Shown here: positions 8,355-53,814 of the stretch, piece after piece | Layout of the letters: each line of letters starts with the position of its first letter | How positions within the stretch are numbered: the first letter of the stretch is position 1 | The notes under the pieces: generated by a model | What the model was told of the DNA's origin: nothing | The model's input: the letters and a program-made list of their open reading frames with translations, nothing else | Database searches by the model: none | From: Sphyrna mokarran | Taxonomy: Eukaryota | Assembly: GCA_024679065.1 (NCBI GenBank) | Contig: JAGIQG010000011.1 | Coordinates: forward strand, 44,454,001 to 44,518,000 | Direction of reading: 5' to 3' | Length of the DNA stretch: 64,000 nucleotides | Made by a program: the position numbers and the translations under genes

Positions 8355-8935
8355 TTAGGACCTCACCTTTTTTAACCTGTGTTGTTTGTACCAACGTGTA
8401 GTATGACCGCTGGCTGTCTGCCCTCTTCCTTCAGAATGTCTGCAGCCAGTCTGAGACATCCTTGACCTAGTACTAGGGAGGCAACATACTATCCTAGGGT
8501 CTCGTTTGCAACCACAATAGTATCTATCTATTCTCCTTACAATTGAATCTCCTATAACAGTTGCATTTCCGCACATTTTACTTCTCCCCTCTGCAGCAGA
8601 ACCATCCATGGTGCAATGGATTTGATTGATGCTGTTTTTCCCTGAAAAACTACTTTCCTCAATAGCATAAAAGACAATATATTTGTTTTTAAAAGGGAAC
8701 AGCCTCAGGAGATTCCTGCATTGCCTGGCGATCATCCATTCTCTTCCTGCCTGTGGAGTCTGAACTTTCGGTGGGACCACCTCTCTATACGAGCTATCCA
8801 CGATATGCTCCGTTTTACAGATGCTCAACAGAGTCGCTAGCCGGCGCTCCAGCTCTGAAACACGGGCTTCCAGGAGTTGCAGCTGGAGACACTTACTGCA
8901 CATGTGCTTGTTCTGGGCACTGGAAATCACTCCTT
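8355..8935 (-). mobile_element. CR1 ORF1 fragment (zinc finger/leucine zipper plus SGNH esterase domain)
   Basis: ORF 8355..8930: CSKCLQLQLLEARVSELERRL (zf/lz) and VIGDSIVRRIDR...VCCLP (GDSL-type esterase of CR1 ORF1). Confidence 0.85.
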
Positions 8936-9120
8936 GACACCAATTCTTCCTCTAGCCACTATATAGTCAGGGTGACTGCAACCTTACACAGAATGGTCCT
9001 CTGTGAAGTTTCTGCTGGATGGTTCAATGTTGTGAATTAACAGACTGTGGTGGGAGCTGAAGAGATGGGGGCAGGAGTCCAGCCCAGAGCCAGGCACCCT
9101 GGGAGAGCAAGACAAGCAAC

Positions 9121-9601
9121 AGCTGGACTCCCAAGGCTGGTACAGACAGCTGGGCCCCCAAAGCTGGTATTACAGATAGCTGGGCCCCCAAAGCTGGTAT
9201 TACAGATAGCTGGACCCCCAAGGCTGGTATTACAGATAGCTGGGTCCCCAAGGCTGGTATTACAGATAGCTGGGTCCCCAAAGCTGGTATTACAGATAGC
9301 TGGACCCCCAAGGCTGGTATTACAGATAGCTGGACCCCCAAGGCTGGTATTACAGACAGCTGGACCCCCAAGGCTGGTATTACAGATAGCTGGACCCCCA
9401 AGGCTGGTATTACAGACAGCTGGACCCCCAAGGCTGGTATTACAGATAGCTGGACCCCCAAGGCTGGTATTACAGATAGCTGGGTCCCCAAAGCTGGTAT
9501 TACAGATAGCTGGACCCCCAAGGCTGGTATTACAGATAGCTGGACCCCCAAGGCTGGTATTACAGACAGCTGGACCCCCAAGGCTGGTATTACAGATAGC
9601 T
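9121..9601. repeat. 30-bp minisatellite, ~16 near-identical copies
   Basis: Unit agctggacccccaaggctggtattacagat repeated head-to-tail. Fifteen full units at 9148-9597 plus one 27-bp unit. Confidence 0.98.
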
Positions 9602-9604
9602 AGG

Positions 9605-9950: not shown

Positions 9951-9957
9951 GCTCCCC

Positions 9958-11310
9958 TTTAGAATCCAATATCATTCCACAGACCCTCAACTCTATCCTC
10001 ATGCAAGACTCCAACCTCACCCCATTCCAAAACTTCGTCTATTAGACCCCAACTTTCACTCTCTAGACTCTGATACCATCCTACAGACCTCAAACTCCAT
10101 CGTTATTCCAAGACTCCAACTCACCCCATTCCCAAACCTCAGACATTAGACCCCAACTTTCACTCTCTAGACTCCAATATCATCTCACAGACCCCAAACT
10201 CGATCCTCCCCAAGACTCCAATCTCACCCCGTTCCCAAACCTCGCTCACTAGCCCCAACTTTCACTCTGTAGACTCCAATACCATCCCACAGACCCCAAA
10301 CTCTATCCTCCCCAAGACTCCAATCTCGTCCTGTTCCCAAACCTCGCTCACTAGCCCCAACTTTTACTCTCTAGACTCCAATACTGTCCTACAAACATCA
10401 AATTCGATCCTCCGCAAGACTCCAACCTCACCCCATTTCCAAACCTCGTCCACTAGACCCCCAAATTTCACTCTCTAGACTCCAATACCATCCACCAACC
10501 CCAAACTTAGTCCTCACTGAAGACTCCAAACTTACCCCATTCCCAAACCTCATCTGCTAGACCCCAACCTCACCCTCATTCCCAAACCTCACCCACTAGA
10601 CCTCAACCTCGATCCTTGCCCCAGCCACTAAGGCTCCAACCTCACCCACTCCAATCTCATCCTCACCCCCTTAACCTCGCCTTCACCTCCTAGGTTCCAA
10701 CCTCAACCTTTGGGGTGGCACAGTGGTTAGCGCTGCTGCTCACAGTGCCAGGGACCCAGATTCAATTCCCAGCTTGGGTCACTGTCTGTGTGGAATTTGC
10801 ATGTTCTCCCAGTGTCTATGTGCTCTGGTTTCCCCCCACAGATTGAAAGACATGCTGGTTTCGTGCATTGACCCAAACAGCACTGAAGTGTGAATTTCAC
10901 AATATACCTTAGTTGCACTGTTAATGTAAGCCTTATTTGTGACTAATAAATTAACTTTACCTTTCATCCCTAGGCATCAGCACCACCAGTATACCCAACA
11001 CCAGCCATACATCTCAACCATGGTCTTCCTCCTAACTCTCAGACTTTACCTTATGCCCTTACAACTCCCTTAGACCCTATTACCCTTAGACCCCAAACTT
11101 GATCCTCACTCTCAGCCCCTGGATCCCAAGCTCAATCCACAACACCATCAACTAGACCCCAACACCATCCCCTAGACCCCAACCTGACCCTCACCCCCTC
11201 CACCCCAACTTCAATCCTCACTCTTGCCCCGGACCCAAACTGTGCCCCTTTCCGAAACTCACCCTCTAGACTCTAACCTCAACCTTCTCCCCCTAGAATC
11301 CCAACTCATT
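9958..11310. repeat. C-rich ~102-104-bp tandem array, ~6 clear copies then degenerating, interrupted by a SINE
   Basis: tagactccaat-like motif recurs at ~9960, 10063, 10168, 10270, 10372 and 10476. Degenerate copies continue to ~11310. Confidence 0.9.
10712..10960 (+). mobile_element. HE1-like V-SINE with non-CR1 (Rex1/Babar-like) tail
   Basis: A box tggcacagtgg, B box gattcaattcc, V-core ctgtgtggaatttgcatgttctcccc, tail gtgactaataaa. Confidence 0.9.
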
Positions 11311-19260: not shown

Positions 19261-19514
19261 CCCTTTTACTTCACCCCAAGGCAGGTAAAAGGTAAATGCA
19301 GTTCTGGTACTCGTACCATTTGGGTGATGCCCTGCAATACACTCCTGCATCAATATGACACATTGCAAAGACAAAAGAGAGAGAGAGAGATAAGGCAGTG
19401 CCAGCCTACCTCTGCCAAAGCCAGCATCTCATTTCCATAAGCTTCATGTTTCAGTGTTGTTTGAAATCTCACAACACCAGGTTAAAATCCAACAGGTTTA
19501 TTTGGCAGCAAAAG

Positions 19515-19551
19515 CCACTAGCTTTCGGAGTGCTGCCCTTTCATCAGGTAA
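19515..19551 (-). ncRNA. Minimal type I hammerhead ribozyme motif in Penelope terminal repeat
   Basis: UUAC-CUGAUGA-stem II-GAAA-GC-UA-GUGG. Core intact, palindromic stem III AGCU, stem II degenerate. Confidence 0.65.
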
Positions 19552-21262
19552 GTGGGAGTTCTCTTCACAAACAGTGCATATAAAGGCACAAACTCAATTT
19601 ACAAAATAATGGTTGGAATGTGAGTTTTTACAGGTAATCATGTCTTAAAGTTCAGACAACGTAAGTAGAGAGAGGGTTAAACACAAGTTAAAGAGATGTG
19701 TGTTGTCTCCAGCCAGAACAATTAGTGAGATGTTGCAAGCCCAGGCAAGTAATGGAAGTTACAGGTAGTGTGACATGAACTCAAGATTCCAATTGAGGCT
19801 GCCTCATGAGTGCGGAACTTGGCTATCAGTCTCTGCTCAGCGATTCTGCGCTGTCATATGTCATGAAGGCTGCCTTGGAGAATGCTTATCCAAAGATCAG
19901 AAGCCGAATGCCCATGGTCGCTGAAGTGTTCCTCAACAGGGAGACAACACTCTTATTTGGTGACTGTCAAGCGGTGTTCATTCATTCATTATCGTAGCCT
20001 TTGGACTCATGGTGAATAATCACTGAAACAACTATATGATGATACCAACAAGCTCAATCCCACCATTAGTCACCATGGACTACTTTCCGGAATTGGTTAC
20101 GTTCTTGGATACATGTATCTCCATCAAGGACAGTCACCTCAGCACTTTGATGTACCGCAAGCCAATGGATAACCTCACGATGCTCCACTTCTCCAGCTTC
20201 CACTTAAACACGTTAAAGAAGCCATCCCCTATGTTAAGCCCTCCGCATACACAGAATCTGCTCAGATAAGGAGAATCACAACAGACACCTTCAAATGCTG
20301 AAAGATGCCCTTGTAAGAACAGCTTACGGTGCTTGACTCATTGATCAACAGTTTGAGGCGCCACAGCAAAAAACCATACTAACCTCCTCAGAAAACAAAC
20401 ATGGGACATGGCAGACAGAGTACCCTTCATCATCCAGTACTTCCCTGGAGTGGAGAAGCTATGACATCTTCTCTGGAGCCTTCAATATGTCATTGATGAA
20501 GATGAACATCTCACCAAGGCTATCCCCACACCCCCACTTTTTGCTTTCAAACAATGGGACAAGCTTTAACAAACCATTGTCCGCAGCAAACTACCCAGCC
20601 TTCAGGAGAACAGTGACCTCAACACCACCCAGACCTGCCACAGCGACCTCTGCAAGACATGCAGGATCTTCAACGCAGTTGCCATAATCTCACATGAGAA
20701 TACCATCCATTGGGTAGATGGTACATACTCTTGCAACTCAGCCAACATTATCTACCTGATACGCTGCAGGAAAAGATGTCCCGAATCATGGTACCTTGGG
20801 GAGATCATGTTGACGTCACAATAACAGATGAATGAACACCGCTTGACAATCACCAAGCAAGACTGTTCTCTTCCTGTTGGGGAACACTTTAGCGGTCATG
20901 GGCATTGGGCCTCTAATCTTTGGGTAAGTGTTCTCCAAGGCAACCTTCATGACACACAACACAGAGTCGCTGAGCAGAGACTGATGGTCAAGTTCCTCAC
21001 ACATGAGGAAGGCTTCAATCGGGATCTTGGGTGCATGTCACACACTACCTGTAATTTCTATCACCTACCTGGGCTTGCAAAATCTCACTAATTGTCCCAA
21101 CTGGAAACAATACACATCTCCTTAACCTGTGTTTAACCCTCTCTCCATTCACATTGTCTGTACCTTTAAGACTTGATTACCTGTAAAGACTTGGATTCCA
21201 ACCATTATTTTGTAAATTGAGGTTGTGTCTTTATATGCACTGTTTGTGAACAGAACTTCTAC

Positions 21263-21299
21263 TTACCTGATGAAGGAGCAACATTCCAAAAGCTAGTGA
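21263..21299 (+). ncRNA. Hammerhead motif (mutated, GAAA to AAAA) in Penelope 3' repeat
   Basis: UUAC-CUGAUGA-AGGAGCAACAUUCC-AAAA-GCUA-GUGA. Confidence 0.6.
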
Positions 21300-21512
21300 T
21301 TTTTGTTACCAAGTAAACCAGTTGGACTTTAACCTAACGTTGTGAGACTTCTTACTGTGTTTACTCCAATCCAACACTGGCATCTCCACATCATATTTCA
21401 GTGTTGCCAGATGATCAACATTATTCGAGATTTGAGCCTTGCTCACAGGTCAGTAAGTAATCAACCTGGGCACACATTTCTCCAATATTTGAAGCACCAG
21501 GTGCCTTTATTA

Positions 21513-25738: not shown

Positions 25739-27082
25739 GATGGCTGGACTTGCCGATAGTGAGGAGCATTGTCAGGCGATGCAGCAGGACATAGATAGGC
25801 TGGTAGCTTGGGCAGATAGATGGCAGATGGAATTCAATCCTAATAAATGCGAGGTGATGCATTGCGGGAGAAAGAATGTAGGGGGGAGGTATATAATAAA
25901 GGGTAGACCTATTAAGAGTGTAGAAACACAGAGGGACCTGGGGGCGCAGGTGCACAAGTCTCTGAAGGTGGCAGAGCAGGTGGAGCAGGTTGTGAAGAAA
26001 GCATATGGTATGCTAGCCTTTATAGGAAGGGGTATAGAGTACAAGAGCTGGCCTTTAATGTTGCAGTTGTATAAAACATTTGTTAGGCCTCATTTGGAAT
26101 ACTGCGTCCAGTTCTGGTCGCCTTACTACCGGAAGGACGTGGAGACTCTGGAGAGAGTGCAGAGGAGGTTTACCAGGATGCTACCTAGTATGGAAGGTCT
26201 GAGTTACGAGGGGAGGTTAGGCAAATTGGGACTGTTTTCCTTAGAAAGACGTAGACTTAGAGGAGATCTAATAGAGCTGTACAAGATTATGAGGGGAATA
26301 GATAGAGTAAACAGGGTTAAGCTTTTTCCTAGGGTGGACTCAAATAGCACGAGGGGTCATGGGCTTAGGATGAGGAGGGTAAGGTATAATTTGGATGCTA
26401 GAGGGAGTTTTTTCACACAGAGGGTGTTGGGGGTATGGAATGCGCTGCCAAGTAAAGTGGTGGAGGCAGGAACTCTGGAGTTATTTAAGAGACACTTAGA
26501 TGGGCACATGAATAGAATGGAAATGGAGGGGTATAGAAAACTGGTTTAAAATAGGGATCATGAGCCTTGGGAGTCCCTGGGAAGTGTGTAAATAGGTGAT
26601 GATATTGATGTACTTGTTTTTATCCTACAGGTGCTTTGGTCCGCCTTGTTGTCTAACAAGGGGCATACACGCAATGGGTCGTGAGAGGGCTGCCCTTGGA
26701 TTTTTCGAGAGTATCCTAGTGCGTCACCTCGTTAGTGTATGCTTGACCTGGACCATTTGTTGGGCAACACGACAGCTCAGTGACTATCGCTGTGCTGTGC
26801 AGATACATGGATTTGGGCCTGTTTCTGTGGGAGTTTACGCATTCTCCCCGTGCTTACATAGGTTTTCTCCAGGTGCTCTGGTTTCCTCCCACACCCCAAA
26901 GACGTGCTCTCAGGCTAATTGGCAGAACAAATTCTCCCTAAATTGTCTCAAATTTGGTTTCAATCCATAGATCTATAAACATAGACAGGATCACGGGTAG
27001 AGATGGGAACATTGGGATGGCAGCGTGGCTCATTGGGCTGAAGGTCCTGTTTCCCGTGCTTTTTTGTTCTTTGTTCTTTGTT
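25739..27082 (+). mobile_element. Young 5'-truncated CR1 LINE (ORF2 C-terminus open to 26549) with extended V-SINE-containing 3' UTR
   Basis: ORF 25737..26549 has WQMEFNPNKCEVMH, RPHLEYCVQFWSPY and FFTQRVLGVWNALP. (TTCTTTG)n tail. Aligns closely with 52460-53803. Confidence 0.95.
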
Positions 27083-34785: not shown

Positions 34786-35075
34786 TATGGCACAGTGGTT
34801 AGCACTGCTACCTCGCAGCACCAGGAGCGTGGGTTCAATTCCCAGTTTGAGTCACTGTCTATTTGGAGTTTGCATGTTCTCCCTATGTCTGTGTGGATTT
34901 CCTCCAGGTGCACCAGTTTCCTCCCACAGTCCAAAAGGTGTGCTGGTTGTGTACATTGGCCATGTTAAATTCTCCCTCAGTGTACCCAAACAGGTGCTGG
35001 AATCTGGCAATTAAGGGATTTTCACAGTAACTTTATTGTAGTGTTAATGTAAGCCTATTTGTGACACTAATAAAT
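34786..35075 (+). mobile_element. HE1-like V-SINE with Rex1/Babar-like tail
   Basis: A and B boxes, V-core, tail gattttcacagtaac...gtgacactaataaa. Confidence 0.9.
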
Positions 35076-35164
35076 GAAAAGAAAACAAGGCTATAGACAC
35101 AGCGCTGGAAAATGGTGTTAGAATGGATTTGTGCTTGATAGCCAATGCAATCATAGTAGGCCAA

Positions 35165-35510: not shown

Positions 35511-35608
35511 TTTGCAGAAGTTTAAGCAATTTGAAATATTGTTCCTATTGTCAGGAAACAGAAATAGGTTTAACTGATCTATATTTATATTGTTAAATCT
35601 TAGAAATG

Positions 35609-35895
35609 AGGTGGCATGATGGTTAGCACTGCTCTCTCAGTGCCAGGAACCTGAGTTCAATTCCCAGCTTGGGTCACTATCTGTGTGGAGTCTACATGTT
35701 TTCCTTGTGTCTGCGTGAGTTTCCTCTGGTTTCCTCCCACAGTCCAAAAGATAGGCTAGTTAGGAGCATTGGTCATGCAAAATTCTTCCCCAGTATACCC
35801 GAACAGGTGTTGGAATGTGGTGACTGTTGGATTTTCACAATAACTTCATTGCAGTGTTAATATAAGCCTACATGTGACATTGACAAATAAACTTT
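35609..35895 (+). mobile_element. HE1-like V-SINE with Rex1/Babar-like tail
   Basis: B box gagttcaattccc, V-core, tail gattttcacaataac...gtgacattgacaaataaac. Confidence 0.88.
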
Positions 35896-43589: not shown

Positions 43590-45318
43590 GACAACTTGAA
43601 ACCCATGACAAAGGAGGGGAAAAAAGGCCTGTTCTTTGAGAAAATTCATTCCTTAAAATCAGAAATGATCAGTCAATGTGAAGCAACACTATCAATCTGG
43701 CTGTCAAAAGTGCAGAAAATTCAAGCAAGGCCAGAAGATGAAGTTTGGCAAAAAGACAGTTTGTCATTTTACTTTAGAATGTTTGAAGTGTTAAACAGTG
43801 TACAAACTGCACTTTCATCCTTATCAACAAAATGTATGAGTGAATTAGCTGATGAGTTTGACTTGCTGATTTCCGGAGAAACCACATTGCCTAAAAAAAT
43901 TGAACAAGAAGTTCAAGAACAAGAAGTGGACTCTGAAATGGGAACGGAACTACAAATTGCTGCTCAAGCTCAATTCTTCTATATGTGAAGGAAGAAACCT
44001 ACCCTGAAAATGTTGCCTTATGGCCAAAATCTTTCCACTGGGTATGATTGAATATTTCATAATAAATGGACCAGAAAACACAGGTAATATGGAAAATTTG
44101 AGAAAAGAATTTGATGTTGGAAGCCAAAAGCAGTTTAGAAGTCTTTGTGAGAGCCATTTTCTGAGGGGGAAGGGAAACGGCAAGACGGAAAGGAGACCTT
44201 GGTTTATTTTGTTCAGAAACTTCTGAGGCAGTCTACTGTTATGTTTGTAAATTATTCTATGACCCTAAAAAAAAATCATGCATTCATCGCTGGTTACTCT
44301 AACCAGAGAAATGTTGGAAGAGATCTTGCTTATTGTAATACTTCCAAAAGTCATGTTAAGGCTATATGTATATCCATTCAATGATGCAAATCATTTGGGA
44401 GAATTGATTCTGCGTTATTGGCTGTTTGAATAGGAGGAAAGTGCTGAAATGTATTGTTGTCATAATCAAACTTCTGTCTTGGGATTTCCATTAAGAGGAC
44501 ATAGAATCATAGAATCATTGAAACCATAGAATCATAGAAACCCTACAGTGCAGAAAGAGGCCATCTGGCCCATTGAGTCTGCACCGACAACAATCCCACC
44601 CAGGCCGTACCCCTATATCCTTACATATTTACCTGTTAATCTTTCTAAGCAAATGCATCTCAGGACACTAAGTGGCAATTTTAGCATGACCAATTGACCT
44701 AACCCACACATCTTTGAACTGTGGGAGGAAACCCATTGCTGCTTCACAGTTCCAGGGACCCAGGTTCAAATCCTGGCTTGGGTCACTATCTGTGTGGAGT
44801 TTGCACATTCTCCCAATATCTGGGTGGCTTTCCTCCAGGTTCTCCGGTTTCCTCCCACAGTCTGAAGATGTACAGGTTATGTTGGTTGGCTGTGCTAAAA
44901 TAATTACCCCTTAGTGTCCTGAAATGCGTAGGTTAGAGGGAATAGTGAGTAAATATGGAGGGATATGGAGGTATGGCCTGGGTGGAATTGTGATTGACAT
45001 GGACTCGATGGGCCAAATGGCCTCTTCCTGCACTGTAGGGTTTCTATGATTTTATGATTCTATGAGGACATGATGAATCATTGGTGTCAAGTCTATAGAG
45101 GTAATTTTGTAGCTTGCCTTTTACACCTCAGTGAATTTTATGAGTTTCTCAAAGAGCATTTGAAAAACTATCAATATTGAGGCTTAAGGAAGATCAACTT
45201 TTTAAAGCACAGAGCCCATGGTGAATTCATCACTATAATTGCAAAGCCGCTCAGAAACCAGTTCACTAATGAAATTAAAGATGCCAGACATTATTTCACA
45301 ATAGTTGATTCAACACCT
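43590..45318 (+). mobile_element. hAT (Tip100/ZMYM1-like) transposase relic, interrupted by SINE pair
   Basis: GFPLRGH|DES is continuous across the SINE insertion. NEIKDAR.YF.IVDST remnant at 45265-45316. Confidence 0.65.
44503..45063. mobile_element. Head-to-head V-SINE pair (minus 44503-44734, plus 44735-45063) with 8-bp TSD GAGGACAT
   Basis: (CATAGAAT)n tail on the left and (TTCTATGA)n tail on the right. gaggacat at 44495-44502 and 45064-45071. Confidence 0.9.
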
Positions 45319-51127: not shown

Positions 51128-51270
51128 ATCACTTAACTGGCAACTTGTTTATAGGTTCACTGTTCTCTGTGTAAAAAGCACCTCCTAACATCCAACTAGT
51201 TCCATCCTTACAAAACTTGAAATTGTTACCTCTGGTCCTTGCCAACCTTAAGTTCACATAACTTTCCACC
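51128..51270 (-). mobile_element. Short diverged CR1 ORF2 C-terminal fragment
   Basis: ARTRGNNFK...GAFYTE...NKLPVK resembles TRGH.FK...FFTQRV..WN.LP. Confidence 0.55.
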
Positions 51271-51304
51271 ACTGAGGTATTCCTTTTGTATTTTCTTGCA
51301 CTAT

Positions 51305-53803
51305 AATGTTGCAAGAAAGATATGTGCCAGCTAAGAGGAAAGATAGGAAACGTAGGATGAGAGAGCTGTGGATTACTAGGGATATTGAGGATTTGGTTAG
51401 GAAGAAAAGAGAGGCGTATGAAAGGTCGAAGCAGCTGGGAACAGAGACAGTGTTGGAGGAATATAGAGAGAGTAGGAGGGAGCTCAAACGGGGCGTTAGA
51501 AGGGCAAAAAGGGGGCATGAAATGGTTTTGGTGGATAGGATTAAGGAAAATCCAAAGGCTTTTTACTCCTATGTTAGGAATAAAAGGGTGGTTAGAGGAA
51601 AAATAGGACCTCTTAGGGACAGAGGAGGGGAACTGTCCTTAGAGCCCGAGGGAATGGGGGAGATCCTGAATTAATGCTTTGCATCGGTATTCACGAAGGA
51701 GAGGGCTTGTTGACAGCTCCTGTCTCTGAGGGAGCTGTGGACCAGTTGAGGGAACTATCCATACCGAGGGAGAAAGTGTTAGAGCTTCTAGGTAGCATTA
51801 AAACAGAAAGATCTCAGGGGCCTGATGGCATTTATCCCAGGCTGCTTAGGGAGGTGCGAGGTGAAATTGCTGAGCCTCTGACGCAAATTTTTGTCTCTTC
51901 TTTGGTCACAGGTGAGGTCTCAGAGGACTGGAGATTAGCTAATGTTGTACCGTTGTTTAAAACCCTGGAAATTATAGGCTGGTGAGTTTGACGTCAGTGG
52001 TAGGGAAGTTGTTGGAGGGGATTCTTAGAGATAGGATGTATAGGCACTTACAGTGTTGCGATCTGATTAGGGATACACAGCATGGATTTGTTAAGGGGAG
52101 GTCGTGCCTTACAAATCTGGTAGAATTTTTTGAGGAGGTGACGAAAACGCTTGACGAAGGGCACGCCGTTGATGTCGTCTATATGGATTTCAGTAAGGCT
52201 TTTGACAAAGTCCCTTATGGGAGGTTAGTTGAAAAGGTCAAGGCTCATGGGAAAGAAGGACAGGTAGCTAAATGGATAAGTAACTGGCTTGGTAATAGGA
52301 GGCAGAAAGTACTAGTGGAAGGGTATTTTTCAAGCTGCAAGTCGGTCACTAGTGGTGTGCCACAGGGCTCGGTACTGGGACCTCTTCTATTTGTAATATA
52401 TATAAATGACTTGGAAGAGGGAGTAAGTGGAGTGATCAGCAAGTTTGCAGACGATACAAAGATGGCTGGACTTGCGGATAGTGAGGAGCATTGTCAGGCG
52501 ATGCAGCAGGACATAAATAGGCTGGTAGCTTGGGCAGACAGATGGCAGATGGAATTCAATCCTGATAAATGTGAGGTGATGCATTTCGGGAGAAAGAATG
52601 TAGGGGGGAGGTATATGATAAAGGGTAGACCTATTAAGAGTATAGAAACGCAGAGGGACCTGGGGGTGCAGGTGAACAAGTCTCTGAAGGTGGCAGAGCA
52701 AGTGGAGAAGGTTGTGAAGAAAGCATATAGTATGCTAGCCTTTATAGGAAGGGGTACAGAGTACAAGAGCTGGCCTTTAATGTTGCAGTTGTATAAAACG
52801 TTGGTTAGACCTCATTTGGAATACTGCGTCCAGTTCTGGTCGCCTTACTACCGGAAGGACATGGAGACTCTGGAGAGAGTGCAGAGGAGGTTTACCAGGA
52901 TGCTGCCTGGTATGGAAGGTCTGAGTTACGAGGAGAGGTTAGGCAAATTGGGGCTGTTTTCCTTAGAAAGACGTAGACTTAGAGGAGATCTAATAGAGGT
53001 GTACAAGATTATGAGGGATATAGATAGAGTAAACAGGGTTAAGCTTCTTCCTAGGATGGACTTAAATAGCACGAGGGATCATGGGCTTAGGGTGAGGGGG
53101 TTAAGGTATAATTTGGATGCTAGAGGGAGTTTTATCACATAGCGGGTGGTGGTGTATGGAATGCACTGCCAAGTAAAGTGGTGGAGGCAGGCACTCTGGA
53201 GTTATTTAAGAAATACTTAGATGGGCACATGAACAGAATGGGAATGGAGGGGTGTAGAAAACTGGTTTAAAATAGGGATCATGAGCCTTGGGAATCCCTG
53301 GGAAGTGTGTAAATAGGTGATGATATTTATGTTCTTGTTTTTATCCTACAGGTGCTTTGGTCCACCTTGTTGTCTAACAATGGGCATACACGCGATAGGT
53401 CGTGAGAGGGCTGCTCTTGGATTTTTCAAGAGTATCCTCGTGCTTCATGTCGTTAGTGTACGCTTGACCTGGACCATTTGTTGGGCAACACGACAGCTCA
53501 GTGACTATCGCTGCGCTGTGCGGATACATGGATTTGGGCCTGTGTCTGTGGGAGTTTGCACATTCTCCCCATGCTTGCGTGGGTTTTCTCCGGGTGCTCC
53601 GGTTTCCTCCCACATCCCAAAGATGTGCTCTTAGACTAATTGACAAAACAAATTTTCCCTAAATTGTCTCAAATTTGCTTTTTAATCCTTAGATGTATAA
53701 ACATAGACAGGGATCATGAGTAGAGGTGGGAACATCGGGATGGCGGTGCGGGCTCGTTGGGCTGAAAGGCCGGTTTCCCGTGCTGTTTTGTTCTTTGTTC
53801 TTT
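51305..53803 (+). mobile_element. Young 5'-truncated CR1 LINE with near-complete RT and extended V-SINE-containing 3' UTR
   Basis: ORF 51982..53142: QHGFVKGRSCLTNL, DFSKAFDKVP, GVPQGSVLGP, KFADDTK. A few frameshifts or stops. (TTCTTTG)n tail. Confidence 0.97.
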
Positions 53804-53814
53804 ATTTTTCCCTC

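What the first reader, a model, noticed from the sequence alone, without database searches (positions are those of the whole stretch)
53270..53803. CR1 LINE family whose 3' UTR has captured a V-SINE core lacking its B box (LINE-SINE chimera mobilised as a unit)
Seen: two dispersed copies (26550-27082 and 53270-53803) carry the same ~530-nt tail after the ORF2 stop. It contains a degenerate SINE head (gggcaacacgacagctcagtgactatcgctg, similar to gggcagcacggtggcacagtggttagcactg) with no recognisable B box, then the V-domain (ctgtgggagtttgcacattctccccatgcttgcgtgggttttctccgggtgctccggtttcctcccaca, ~53545-53628), then the CR1 terminal motif and (TTCTTTG)n. Known: HE1 V-SINEs take their tail from CR1 LINEs, so transfer normally runs LINE to SINE. 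Inference: here the LINE took up the SINE core and amplified with it. That would put the V-domain, whose function is unresolved, inside an autonomous LINE mRNA.
Basis: partly seen in the sequence, partly recalled or inferred. Interest (0 to 1): 0.75.

Follow-up and report, generated by a model that had tools for sequence, protein, structure and literature searches.

The report
Shark LINE carrying a captured V-SINE
Two scattered copies of a jumping gene (a CR1 LINE, likely from a shark) carry the same promoter-broken piece of a smaller parasitic element (a V-SINE) in their tail, so the large element likely swallowed its own parasite once and then spread with it, most likely as a passenger.

Summary
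Two 5'-truncated CR1 copies (92.7% identical over 1,347 nt, unrelated flanks) share a 533-nt 3' UTR, far longer than that of three other CR1 copies in the window. It holds about 215 nt of unknown origin (acceptor-like site, long hairpin), a SINE head remnant about 20 nt short and lacking the B box, the V-domain, a weakly SINE-like body of full-SINE length, and a CR1-type terminal hairpin with (TTCTTTG)n. Both copies share the B-box gap and 14 V-domain changes, so capture happened once, before amplification. The captured piece is probably a nearly whole V-SINE, not only a core. Other copies of the ORF2 subfamily exist, but the chimeric junction outside this window, copy number, a full-length intact copy and Repbase/Dfam status could not be checked. 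Nothing shows that the V-domain works inside the LINE RNA; it is the most diverged part between the copies. Precedent: MER6 took up a headless V-SINE. Ten literature searches found no V-SINE in a CR1 3' UTR. Verdict: real, a new variant of a known kind (TE inside TE), moderate interest.

The parts
51266..53270 (+). Copy 1, CR1 ORF2, 5'-truncated (start approximate), broken by frameshifts near 51620-51670, 51960-51985 and 53150; reverse transcriptase domain
   Evidence: (RVT_1 E 3.6e-31)
53271..53285 (+). Start of the 3' UTR, with first copy of a 12-bp direct repeat (53274-53285)
   Evidence: exact 12-mer repeats in 24 of 2000 shuffles
53286..53482 (+). Spacer of unknown origin; no match elsewhere in the window except copy 2; splice-acceptor-like site ending 53351
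53368..53490 (+). Predicted long imperfect hairpin whose base pairs with the first bases of the SINE head; same fold in copy 2 (26647-26769)
   Evidence: z -4.55 and -2.42; region chosen after the whole-UTR fold
53483..53532 (+). Degenerate tRNA-type SINE head: A-box region kept, B box missing, about 20 nt short
53533..53632 (+). V-domain
   Evidence: 73 of 85 positions match the published V consensus by eye
53633..53744 (+). Post-V body, weakly SINE-like (44-60% to the local SINE majority), holds the second 12-bp repeat (53709-53720)
53745..53803 (+). Terminal stem-loop and (TTCTTTG)n; the last ~45 nt are closer to a CR1 end of the window than to its SINE ends
25739..26549 (+). Copy 2, last 269 codons of ORF2, open frame, 5'-truncated
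26550..27082 (+). Copy 2, the same 3' UTR (spacer, head at 26762, V about 26812-26911, body, terminal motif and repeats)

Best explanation
These are two retrotransposed copies of a CR1 LINE subfamily, likely of a shark, whose source element likely took a nearly whole V-SINE and about 215 nt of neighbouring DNA into its 3' UTR once, and then likely spread it as a passenger. Shown: the shared UTR, the head remnant without B box, the V-domain, one terminal CR1 hairpin, unrelated flanks, 5' truncation. Inferred route: the SINE and the LINE share a homologous 3' hairpin, and the two were joined there (template switch during reverse transcription, or read-through into a downstream SINE followed by collapse of the two tails), leaving SINE-length spacing and one LINE-type end. 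Inferred consequence: without the B box the piece cannot be transcribed by Pol III as a free SINE; the ORF2 protein would still bind the terminal stem-loop and copy the whole RNA, so everything upstream of the hairpin is carried along.
For: Dispersed copies with unrelated flanks and different 5' ends. Stop-to-terminal-motif distance about 490 nt vs 28-45 nt in 3 of 3 other CR1 ends of the window (read). Shared derived state: same 38-nt A-box-to-V spacing and 14 of 105 V columns where both copies differ from the SINE majority. One collinear profile hit over positions 70-315, E 7e-33 and 1e-24; V-end to terminal motif 136 and 133 nt vs 139, 133, 140, 122, 97 in five free SINEs. Only one terminal motif. 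ORF2 differences 9 synonymous, 25 non-synonymous in 227 codons, as expected for two dead copies of one source. Further members of the ORF2 subfamily: P0123 82%, P0150 88%. Stem-loop recognition by ORF2 is shown for zebrafish L2 (PMC4176376, passages).
Against: The post-V match is weak: 10.1 bits in copy 1 (0 of 300 shuffles), no hit in copy 2, and no hit in either once the terminal motif is left out; local z 3.0, 1.1, 0.5. The 12-bp repeat fits a simple insertion as well. About 23% of the word positions lie wholly in ORF2, so shares near 0.2-0.3 may not include the UTR; only X1 (0.87, possibly the window's own source) and X2 (0.44) exceed that. No third copy with the junction was read (searches gave 0; only distant CR1). 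V-to-end differs twice as much between the copies as the rest (32/268 vs 61/1072, p 7e-4; non-CpG p 0.03), unexplained. 'Passenger' rests on absence of evidence.
Confidence: 0.58

Rival explanations
1. Same family, other route: a 435-nt block (spacer, head, V, part of the body) was inserted inside the LINE's own short UTR, duplicating 12 bp; the last ~95 nt are all native LINE.
For: Exact 12-bp direct repeat in copy 1 (24 of 2000 shuffles). Removing the block leaves about 53 nt from stop to terminal motif, near the 28-45 nt of other CR1 ends. The last 45 nt are CR1-type.
Against: The repeat is broken in copy 2 (one gap, two changes). The block has no SINE tail or terminal repeat of its own. 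SINE-like letters continue beyond the second repeat up to the terminal motif (alignments).
Confidence: 0.2
2. The V-domain was kept by selection in the LINE RNA (stability, export, RNP assembly or priming), and the B box was purged because an inner Pol III unit would spawn a competing SINE.
For: Against the local SINE majority V is 86% and 77% identical (free copies 85%), while head (47-61%) and post-V (44-60%) have drifted far. The missing ~20 nt cover the B box. A long hairpin closes on the SINE 5' end in both copies.
Against: V is conserved across V-SINE families whose heads and tails differ (PMC4824008, passages), so a donor other than the local SINE gives the same pattern with no selection in the LINE. 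V is the most diverged part between the copies (12 of 100). MER6 also carries a headless V with no shown function (PMC6887750).
Confidence: 0.15
3. The chimera is non-autonomous: a broken CR1-SINE composite copied in trans by other CR1 proteins.
For: No ORF1, 5' UTR or full ORF2 in the window; copy 1 is frameshifted; neutral ORF2 differences give no sign of selection after the copies split.
Against: Copy 2 has 269 open codons; the ORF2 forms its own clade with coding relatives (100/99) and P0123 ends in nearly the same residues; 5' truncation is normal for LINE copies.
Confidence: 0.1
4. Local duplication or gene conversion of a single chance SINE-after-LINE insertion; no family.
For: Only two junction-bearing copies were read, 27 kb apart, same strand; 13 free SINE pieces in 64 kb make chance adjacency common.
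Against: Similarity stops exactly at the 3' repeat and at a 5' truncation inside ORF2; organism B holds 44% of the junction words.
Confidence: 0.04
5. Reverse direction: this LINE UTR is a source of the V-domain.
For: LINE parts have given SINE bodies elsewhere (RTE, Vingi; PMC5786205).
Against: A tRNA-type head remnant precedes V; V-SINEs reach from vertebrates to cnidarians and bivalves; other CR1 ends lack V.
Confidence: 0.03

Closest known systems
HE1 V-SINE / HER1 CR1 LINE pair of sharks and rays (listed in PMC3747384; Ogiwara 1999 and 2002 not read)
   Same: tRNA-type head, V-domain, CR1-type terminal hairpin; the window holds 13 free SINE pieces of this build. The name HE1 for them is recalled, no HE1 reference sequence was available.
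   Different: Here the SINE sits behind ORF2 in the LINE, lacks the B box, and its head and body are far from the local SINEs; terminal repeat TTCTTTG rather than the TTCTATGA type of the local SINEs.
MER6/MER6A (PMC6887750; parts 1-3 of 5 and supplement passages read)
   Same: A nearly whole V-SINE, disabled at its head, captured by another mobile element and spread by it.
   Different: Host is a non-autonomous Mariner DNA element in mammals, so V need not pass through an RNA; here the host is a LINE and V lies in the RNA that is reverse transcribed, 130 nt from the recognition hairpin.
Ingi-3_AC and RTE-1_DAn (PMC5786205, passages)
   Same: LINEs with a SINE-domain-like or tRNA-like stretch; recombination with a SINE is proposed for Ingi-3_AC.
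   Different: Ingi-3_AC has it in the 5' UTR, Ceph-domain, other clades; short pieces rather than head, domain and body in order.
BovB with SINE or CR1 pieces at its ends (recalled; paper not held)
   Same: A LINE consensus that took up pieces of other retroposons.
   Different: RTE clade; not checked here.

Membership tests
CR1 clade LINE | ORF2 reverse transcriptase grouping with CR1 | tested here: met
   RVT_1 hit; tree of the 2 copies and 39 of 120 listed hits places them among chondrichthyan-named CR1-like proteins
CR1 clade LINE | 3' stem-loop followed by short tandem repeats, no poly(A) | tested here: met
   Same outer stem and inner hairpin in the predicted folds as in another CR1 end and a SINE end; energies not significant alone (z -1.79, 0.49); no poly(A) signal
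CR1 clade LINE | Short 3' UTR as in neighbouring CR1 copies | tested here: not met
   About 490 nt vs 28-45 nt from stop to terminal motif; this is the variant feature
CR1 clade LINE (autonomous) | Full-length copy with 5' UTR, ORF1, endonuclease and intact ORF2 | not testable with these tools
   Both copies 5'-truncated; no genome held
V-SINE | V-domain | tested here: met
   73 of 85 positions match V_HCD of PMC6887750 Fig. S1 by eye; 86% and 77% to local SINE majority
V-SINE | tRNA-derived head with A and B boxes | tested here: not met
   A-box region present but degenerate; B box absent: a SINE relic, not a working SINE
V-SINE | Free-standing dispersed copies of this variant | tested here: inconclusive
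   None in the window; genome not searchable
HE1 family (as donor) | Head, body and tail match HE1 | tested here: inconclusive
   Collinear but only 44-62% outside V against the window's own SINEs; no HE1 reference sequence
HER1 or a catalogued Repbase/Dfam shark CR1 | Identity with a database consensus including the 3' UTR | not testable with these tools
   Shark CR1 consensuses in the supplement of PMC13343379 are cut at 400 characters, so the zero hit means nothing

The most novel reading that the evidence does not exclude
A long-lived shark CR1 lineage domesticated its parasite: it kept the V-domain under selection inside its Pol II RNA, lost the B box, and built a hairpin that closes on the SINE's 5' end. 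That would show the V-domain acts at the RNA level on retrotransposition, independent of Pol III, and give a natural autonomous element in which the function of a 600-million-year-old SINE domain can be tested by deletion.
Probability: 0.15. Interest if true: 0.8.

Novelty: new variant of a known kind. Interest (0 to 1): 0.48.

Why it matters
SINEs normally take their tails from LINEs; a LINE that carries a SINE near its recognition signal shows traffic the other way and that a stringent-type 3' UTR tolerates a 450-nt addition. The function of conserved SINE domains is open (PMC4824008); a LINE lineage with V, and sister lineages without, is a natural comparison and a possible assay system. 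Practically, repeat annotation will split each copy into CR1 plus SINE and inflate V-SINE counts in these genomes. If V is only a passenger it is a tidy parallel to MER6 and little more.

Tried and rejected
No genome is held, and no reads were laid, so copy number, expression and the junction in other species stay open. A junction motif found nothing in metagenome, prokaryote or viral contigs, as expected for vertebrate DNA. ORF2 searches there gave 27 loci of distant CR1 only. The 7 rows with share under 0.2 were not used. The 105-124 codon open frame in the UTR is not a gene as far as tested: no homologue among longer proteins and one hit in 1.84 billion, a repetitive fungal protein, rejected as an artefact of summed weak repeats. 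Rfam: nothing near a gathering score, so the spacer hairpin is no known RNA family. Whole-UTR folding is strong in copy 1 only (z -3.8 vs -0.8); not taken as evidence. Profile search of the head alone failed. Earlier findings: none. Ten paper searches showed no V-SINE in a CR1 3' UTR; passages of PMC1513397, PMC5499810, PMC13295347, PMC11303007 and PMC13343379 had none. Subscription papers, Repbase, Dfam, the Zenodo consensuses of PMC13343379 and file 1 of the PMC4824008 supplement were not seen and may hold this family.

Full report
Observation. The similarity runs from 52461 to 53806 and from 25739 to 27082, 92.7% over 1,347 nt. It ends at the (TTCTTTG)n repeat and, on the 5' side, where copy 2 is cut inside ORF2; copy 1 reaches back to about 51266. 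The flanks do not match. That is the pattern of two separate retrotransposition events from one RNA, not of a local duplication. ORF2 ends at 53270 and 26549, leaving UTRs of 534 and 533 nt. In the three other CR1 3' ends of the window the terminal motif lies 28-45 nt after the stop, against about 490 nt here (read).

The LINE. ORF2 has a reverse transcriptase domain. A tree of the two copies and 39 of the 120 listed homologues puts them in a clade with four unnamed ENA proteins (100/99), among proteins named from sharks, rays and a chimaera and apart from the bird ones. The host is therefore likely an elasmobranch; 'shark' is an inference. Two more ENA proteins are 82% and 88% identical and one ends in nearly the same residues; their UTRs could not be read. 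Between the two copies 9 codons differ synonymously and 25 non-synonymously out of 227, the ratio expected for neutral decay from one source element.

The UTR, part by part. The window holds 13 free SINE pieces (12 of them trained the profile). (1) 53271-53482: no likeness to them (z -0.9), to anything else in the window or to Rfam. Both copies have an acceptor-like site at 53351/26630 and fold a 123-nt hairpin that closes on the first bases of the SINE head (z -4.55 and -2.42, region chosen after the fact). (2) Head: a matrix from 9 SINE heads scores best at 53483 and 26762, matched by 1 and 5 of 1000 shuffles, though a profile search of the head alone failed. No B-box motif occurs in either UTR, while my pattern found one in 8 of 9 free heads; A box to V is 38 nt against 54-58 nt in 7 free copies. 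(3) V: z 30.8; 73 of 85 positions match the published V consensus by eye (PMC6887750 Fig. S1). (4) After V: the profile hit continues to position 315 of 350 (E 7e-33 and 1e-24) and V-end to terminal motif is 136 and 133 nt, like full-length free copies (139, 133, 140; two shorter ones 122, 97). On its own this part is weak: 10.1 bits in copy 1, nothing in copy 2, nothing without the terminal motif. (5) The last 45 nt align better with a CR1 end of the window than with the SINE ends and fold into the same type of stem-loop (energies not significant).

One capture, then spread. Both copies share the shortened head and 14 of 105 V columns that differ from the SINE majority, so the SINE was in the source element. 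Direction is SINE to LINE: a tRNA-type head has no place in a CR1 UTR, the other CR1 copies lack V, and V-SINEs are far older and wider than this clade (PMC4824008, passages). Outside the window the evidence is indirect. The 411-nt stretch 53150-53560 is held at share 0.20 or more by 11 of 19 listed runs, from 7 coded organisms and 7 studies; four of these runs have only 5-7 million letters, which a single-copy locus would rarely reach. About 23% of the word positions lie wholly in ORF2 (my arithmetic), so only X1 (0.87, possibly the window's own source) and X2 (0.44, another organism) point to the UTR itself. No reads were laid, so this is suggestive only.

Route. Two routes fit. Joining at the shared terminal hairpin (template switch, or read-through into a downstream SINE with collapse of the two tails) explains SINE-length spacing, a single terminal motif, a LINE-type end and a foreign spacer with an acceptor-like site. 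Insertion inside the native UTR is favoured by a 12-bp direct repeat 435 nt apart in copy 1 (24 of 2000 shuffles), whose removal leaves about 53 nt, but the repeat is broken in copy 2 and the block has no tail of its own. I put these at about 0.58 and 0.2. In both, ORF2 would bind the terminal stem-loop, as shown for zebrafish L2 (PMC4176376, passages), and copy all that lies upstream.

Does V do anything here? For: V is 86% and 77% identical to the local SINE majority (free copies 85%), while head and body are at 44-62%. Against: a donor from another V-SINE family gives the same pattern, and between the copies V-to-end is the most diverged part (32 of 268 vs 61 of 1072, p 7e-4; without CpG p 0.03), with 10 of the V differences on the side of copy 2 and 1 on copy 1, which I cannot explain. 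I give selection on V 0.15.

What is known. HE1 is the V-SINE of sharks and rays with HER1 as partner (table in PMC3747384); calling the window's SINEs HE1 is recalled, not tested. MER6 is a DNA element that took up a nearly whole, headless V-SINE and spread it (PMC6887750, parts 1-3 of 5). A survey of all Repbase LINE-SINE likenesses reported only RTE and Vingi parts in SINE bodies and noted Ingi-3_AC with a Ceph-like stretch and RTE-1_DAn with a tRNA-like one (PMC5786205, part 2 of 5 and passages); no V-domain in a CR1 appeared in what I read. A 2026 survey built many shark CR1 consensuses but mentions no such UTR in the passages seen (PMC13343379), and its sequences were cut at 400 characters, so the family may be catalogued without comment. 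Ten searches found no description. Ogiwara 1999 and 2002, Repbase and Dfam were not seen.

Verdict. Real and not a local artefact; a CR1 subfamily with a captured, promoter-dead V-SINE in its 3' UTR. It is a new variant of a known kind, element inside element. Autonomy, copy number and any role of V are untested.

Noticed in passing
window 44524-44733 (-) and 44734-45057 (+): A SINE piece inverted head-to-head against a 5'-truncated SINE copy with no gap, like a 5' inversion made during insertion.
   Followed up: no
window 34788-35078, 35605-35891, 10712-10960: Three V-SINE copies with head and V but a different tail lacking the CR1 terminal motif: a second V-SINE subfamily with another partner LINE.
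   Followed up: partly
window 24102-23920 (-): A SINE head and start of V running straight into a CR1-like 3' end, another short SINE-LINE junction.
   Followed up: no
window 53330-53351 and 26609-26630: Splice-acceptor-like site in the spacer of both copies; could let host or LINE transcripts splice into the UTR. A loose pattern of this type matched 14 times on the + strand.
   Followed up: partly
window 9119-9604 and 9957-10647: Tandem arrays with units of about 30 bp and about 104 bp.
   Followed up: no
window 19463-19985 and 20828-21351: Inverted pair of about 525 nt, 84% identical, 840 nt apart; possibly long terminal inverted repeats of a DNA element.
   Followed up: no
window 8355-8951 (-): Open stretch with a cysteine-rich start and a GDS motif, like a decayed CR1 ORF1 esterase (recalled likeness); no Pfam hit.
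   Followed up: partly
P0002, P0005; L027: Vertebrate CR1 ORF2 filed under Proteus mirabilis and Klebsiella pneumoniae, and a CR1 end in a Fredinandcohnia contig: likely host-DNA contamination of bacterial records.
   Followed up: no
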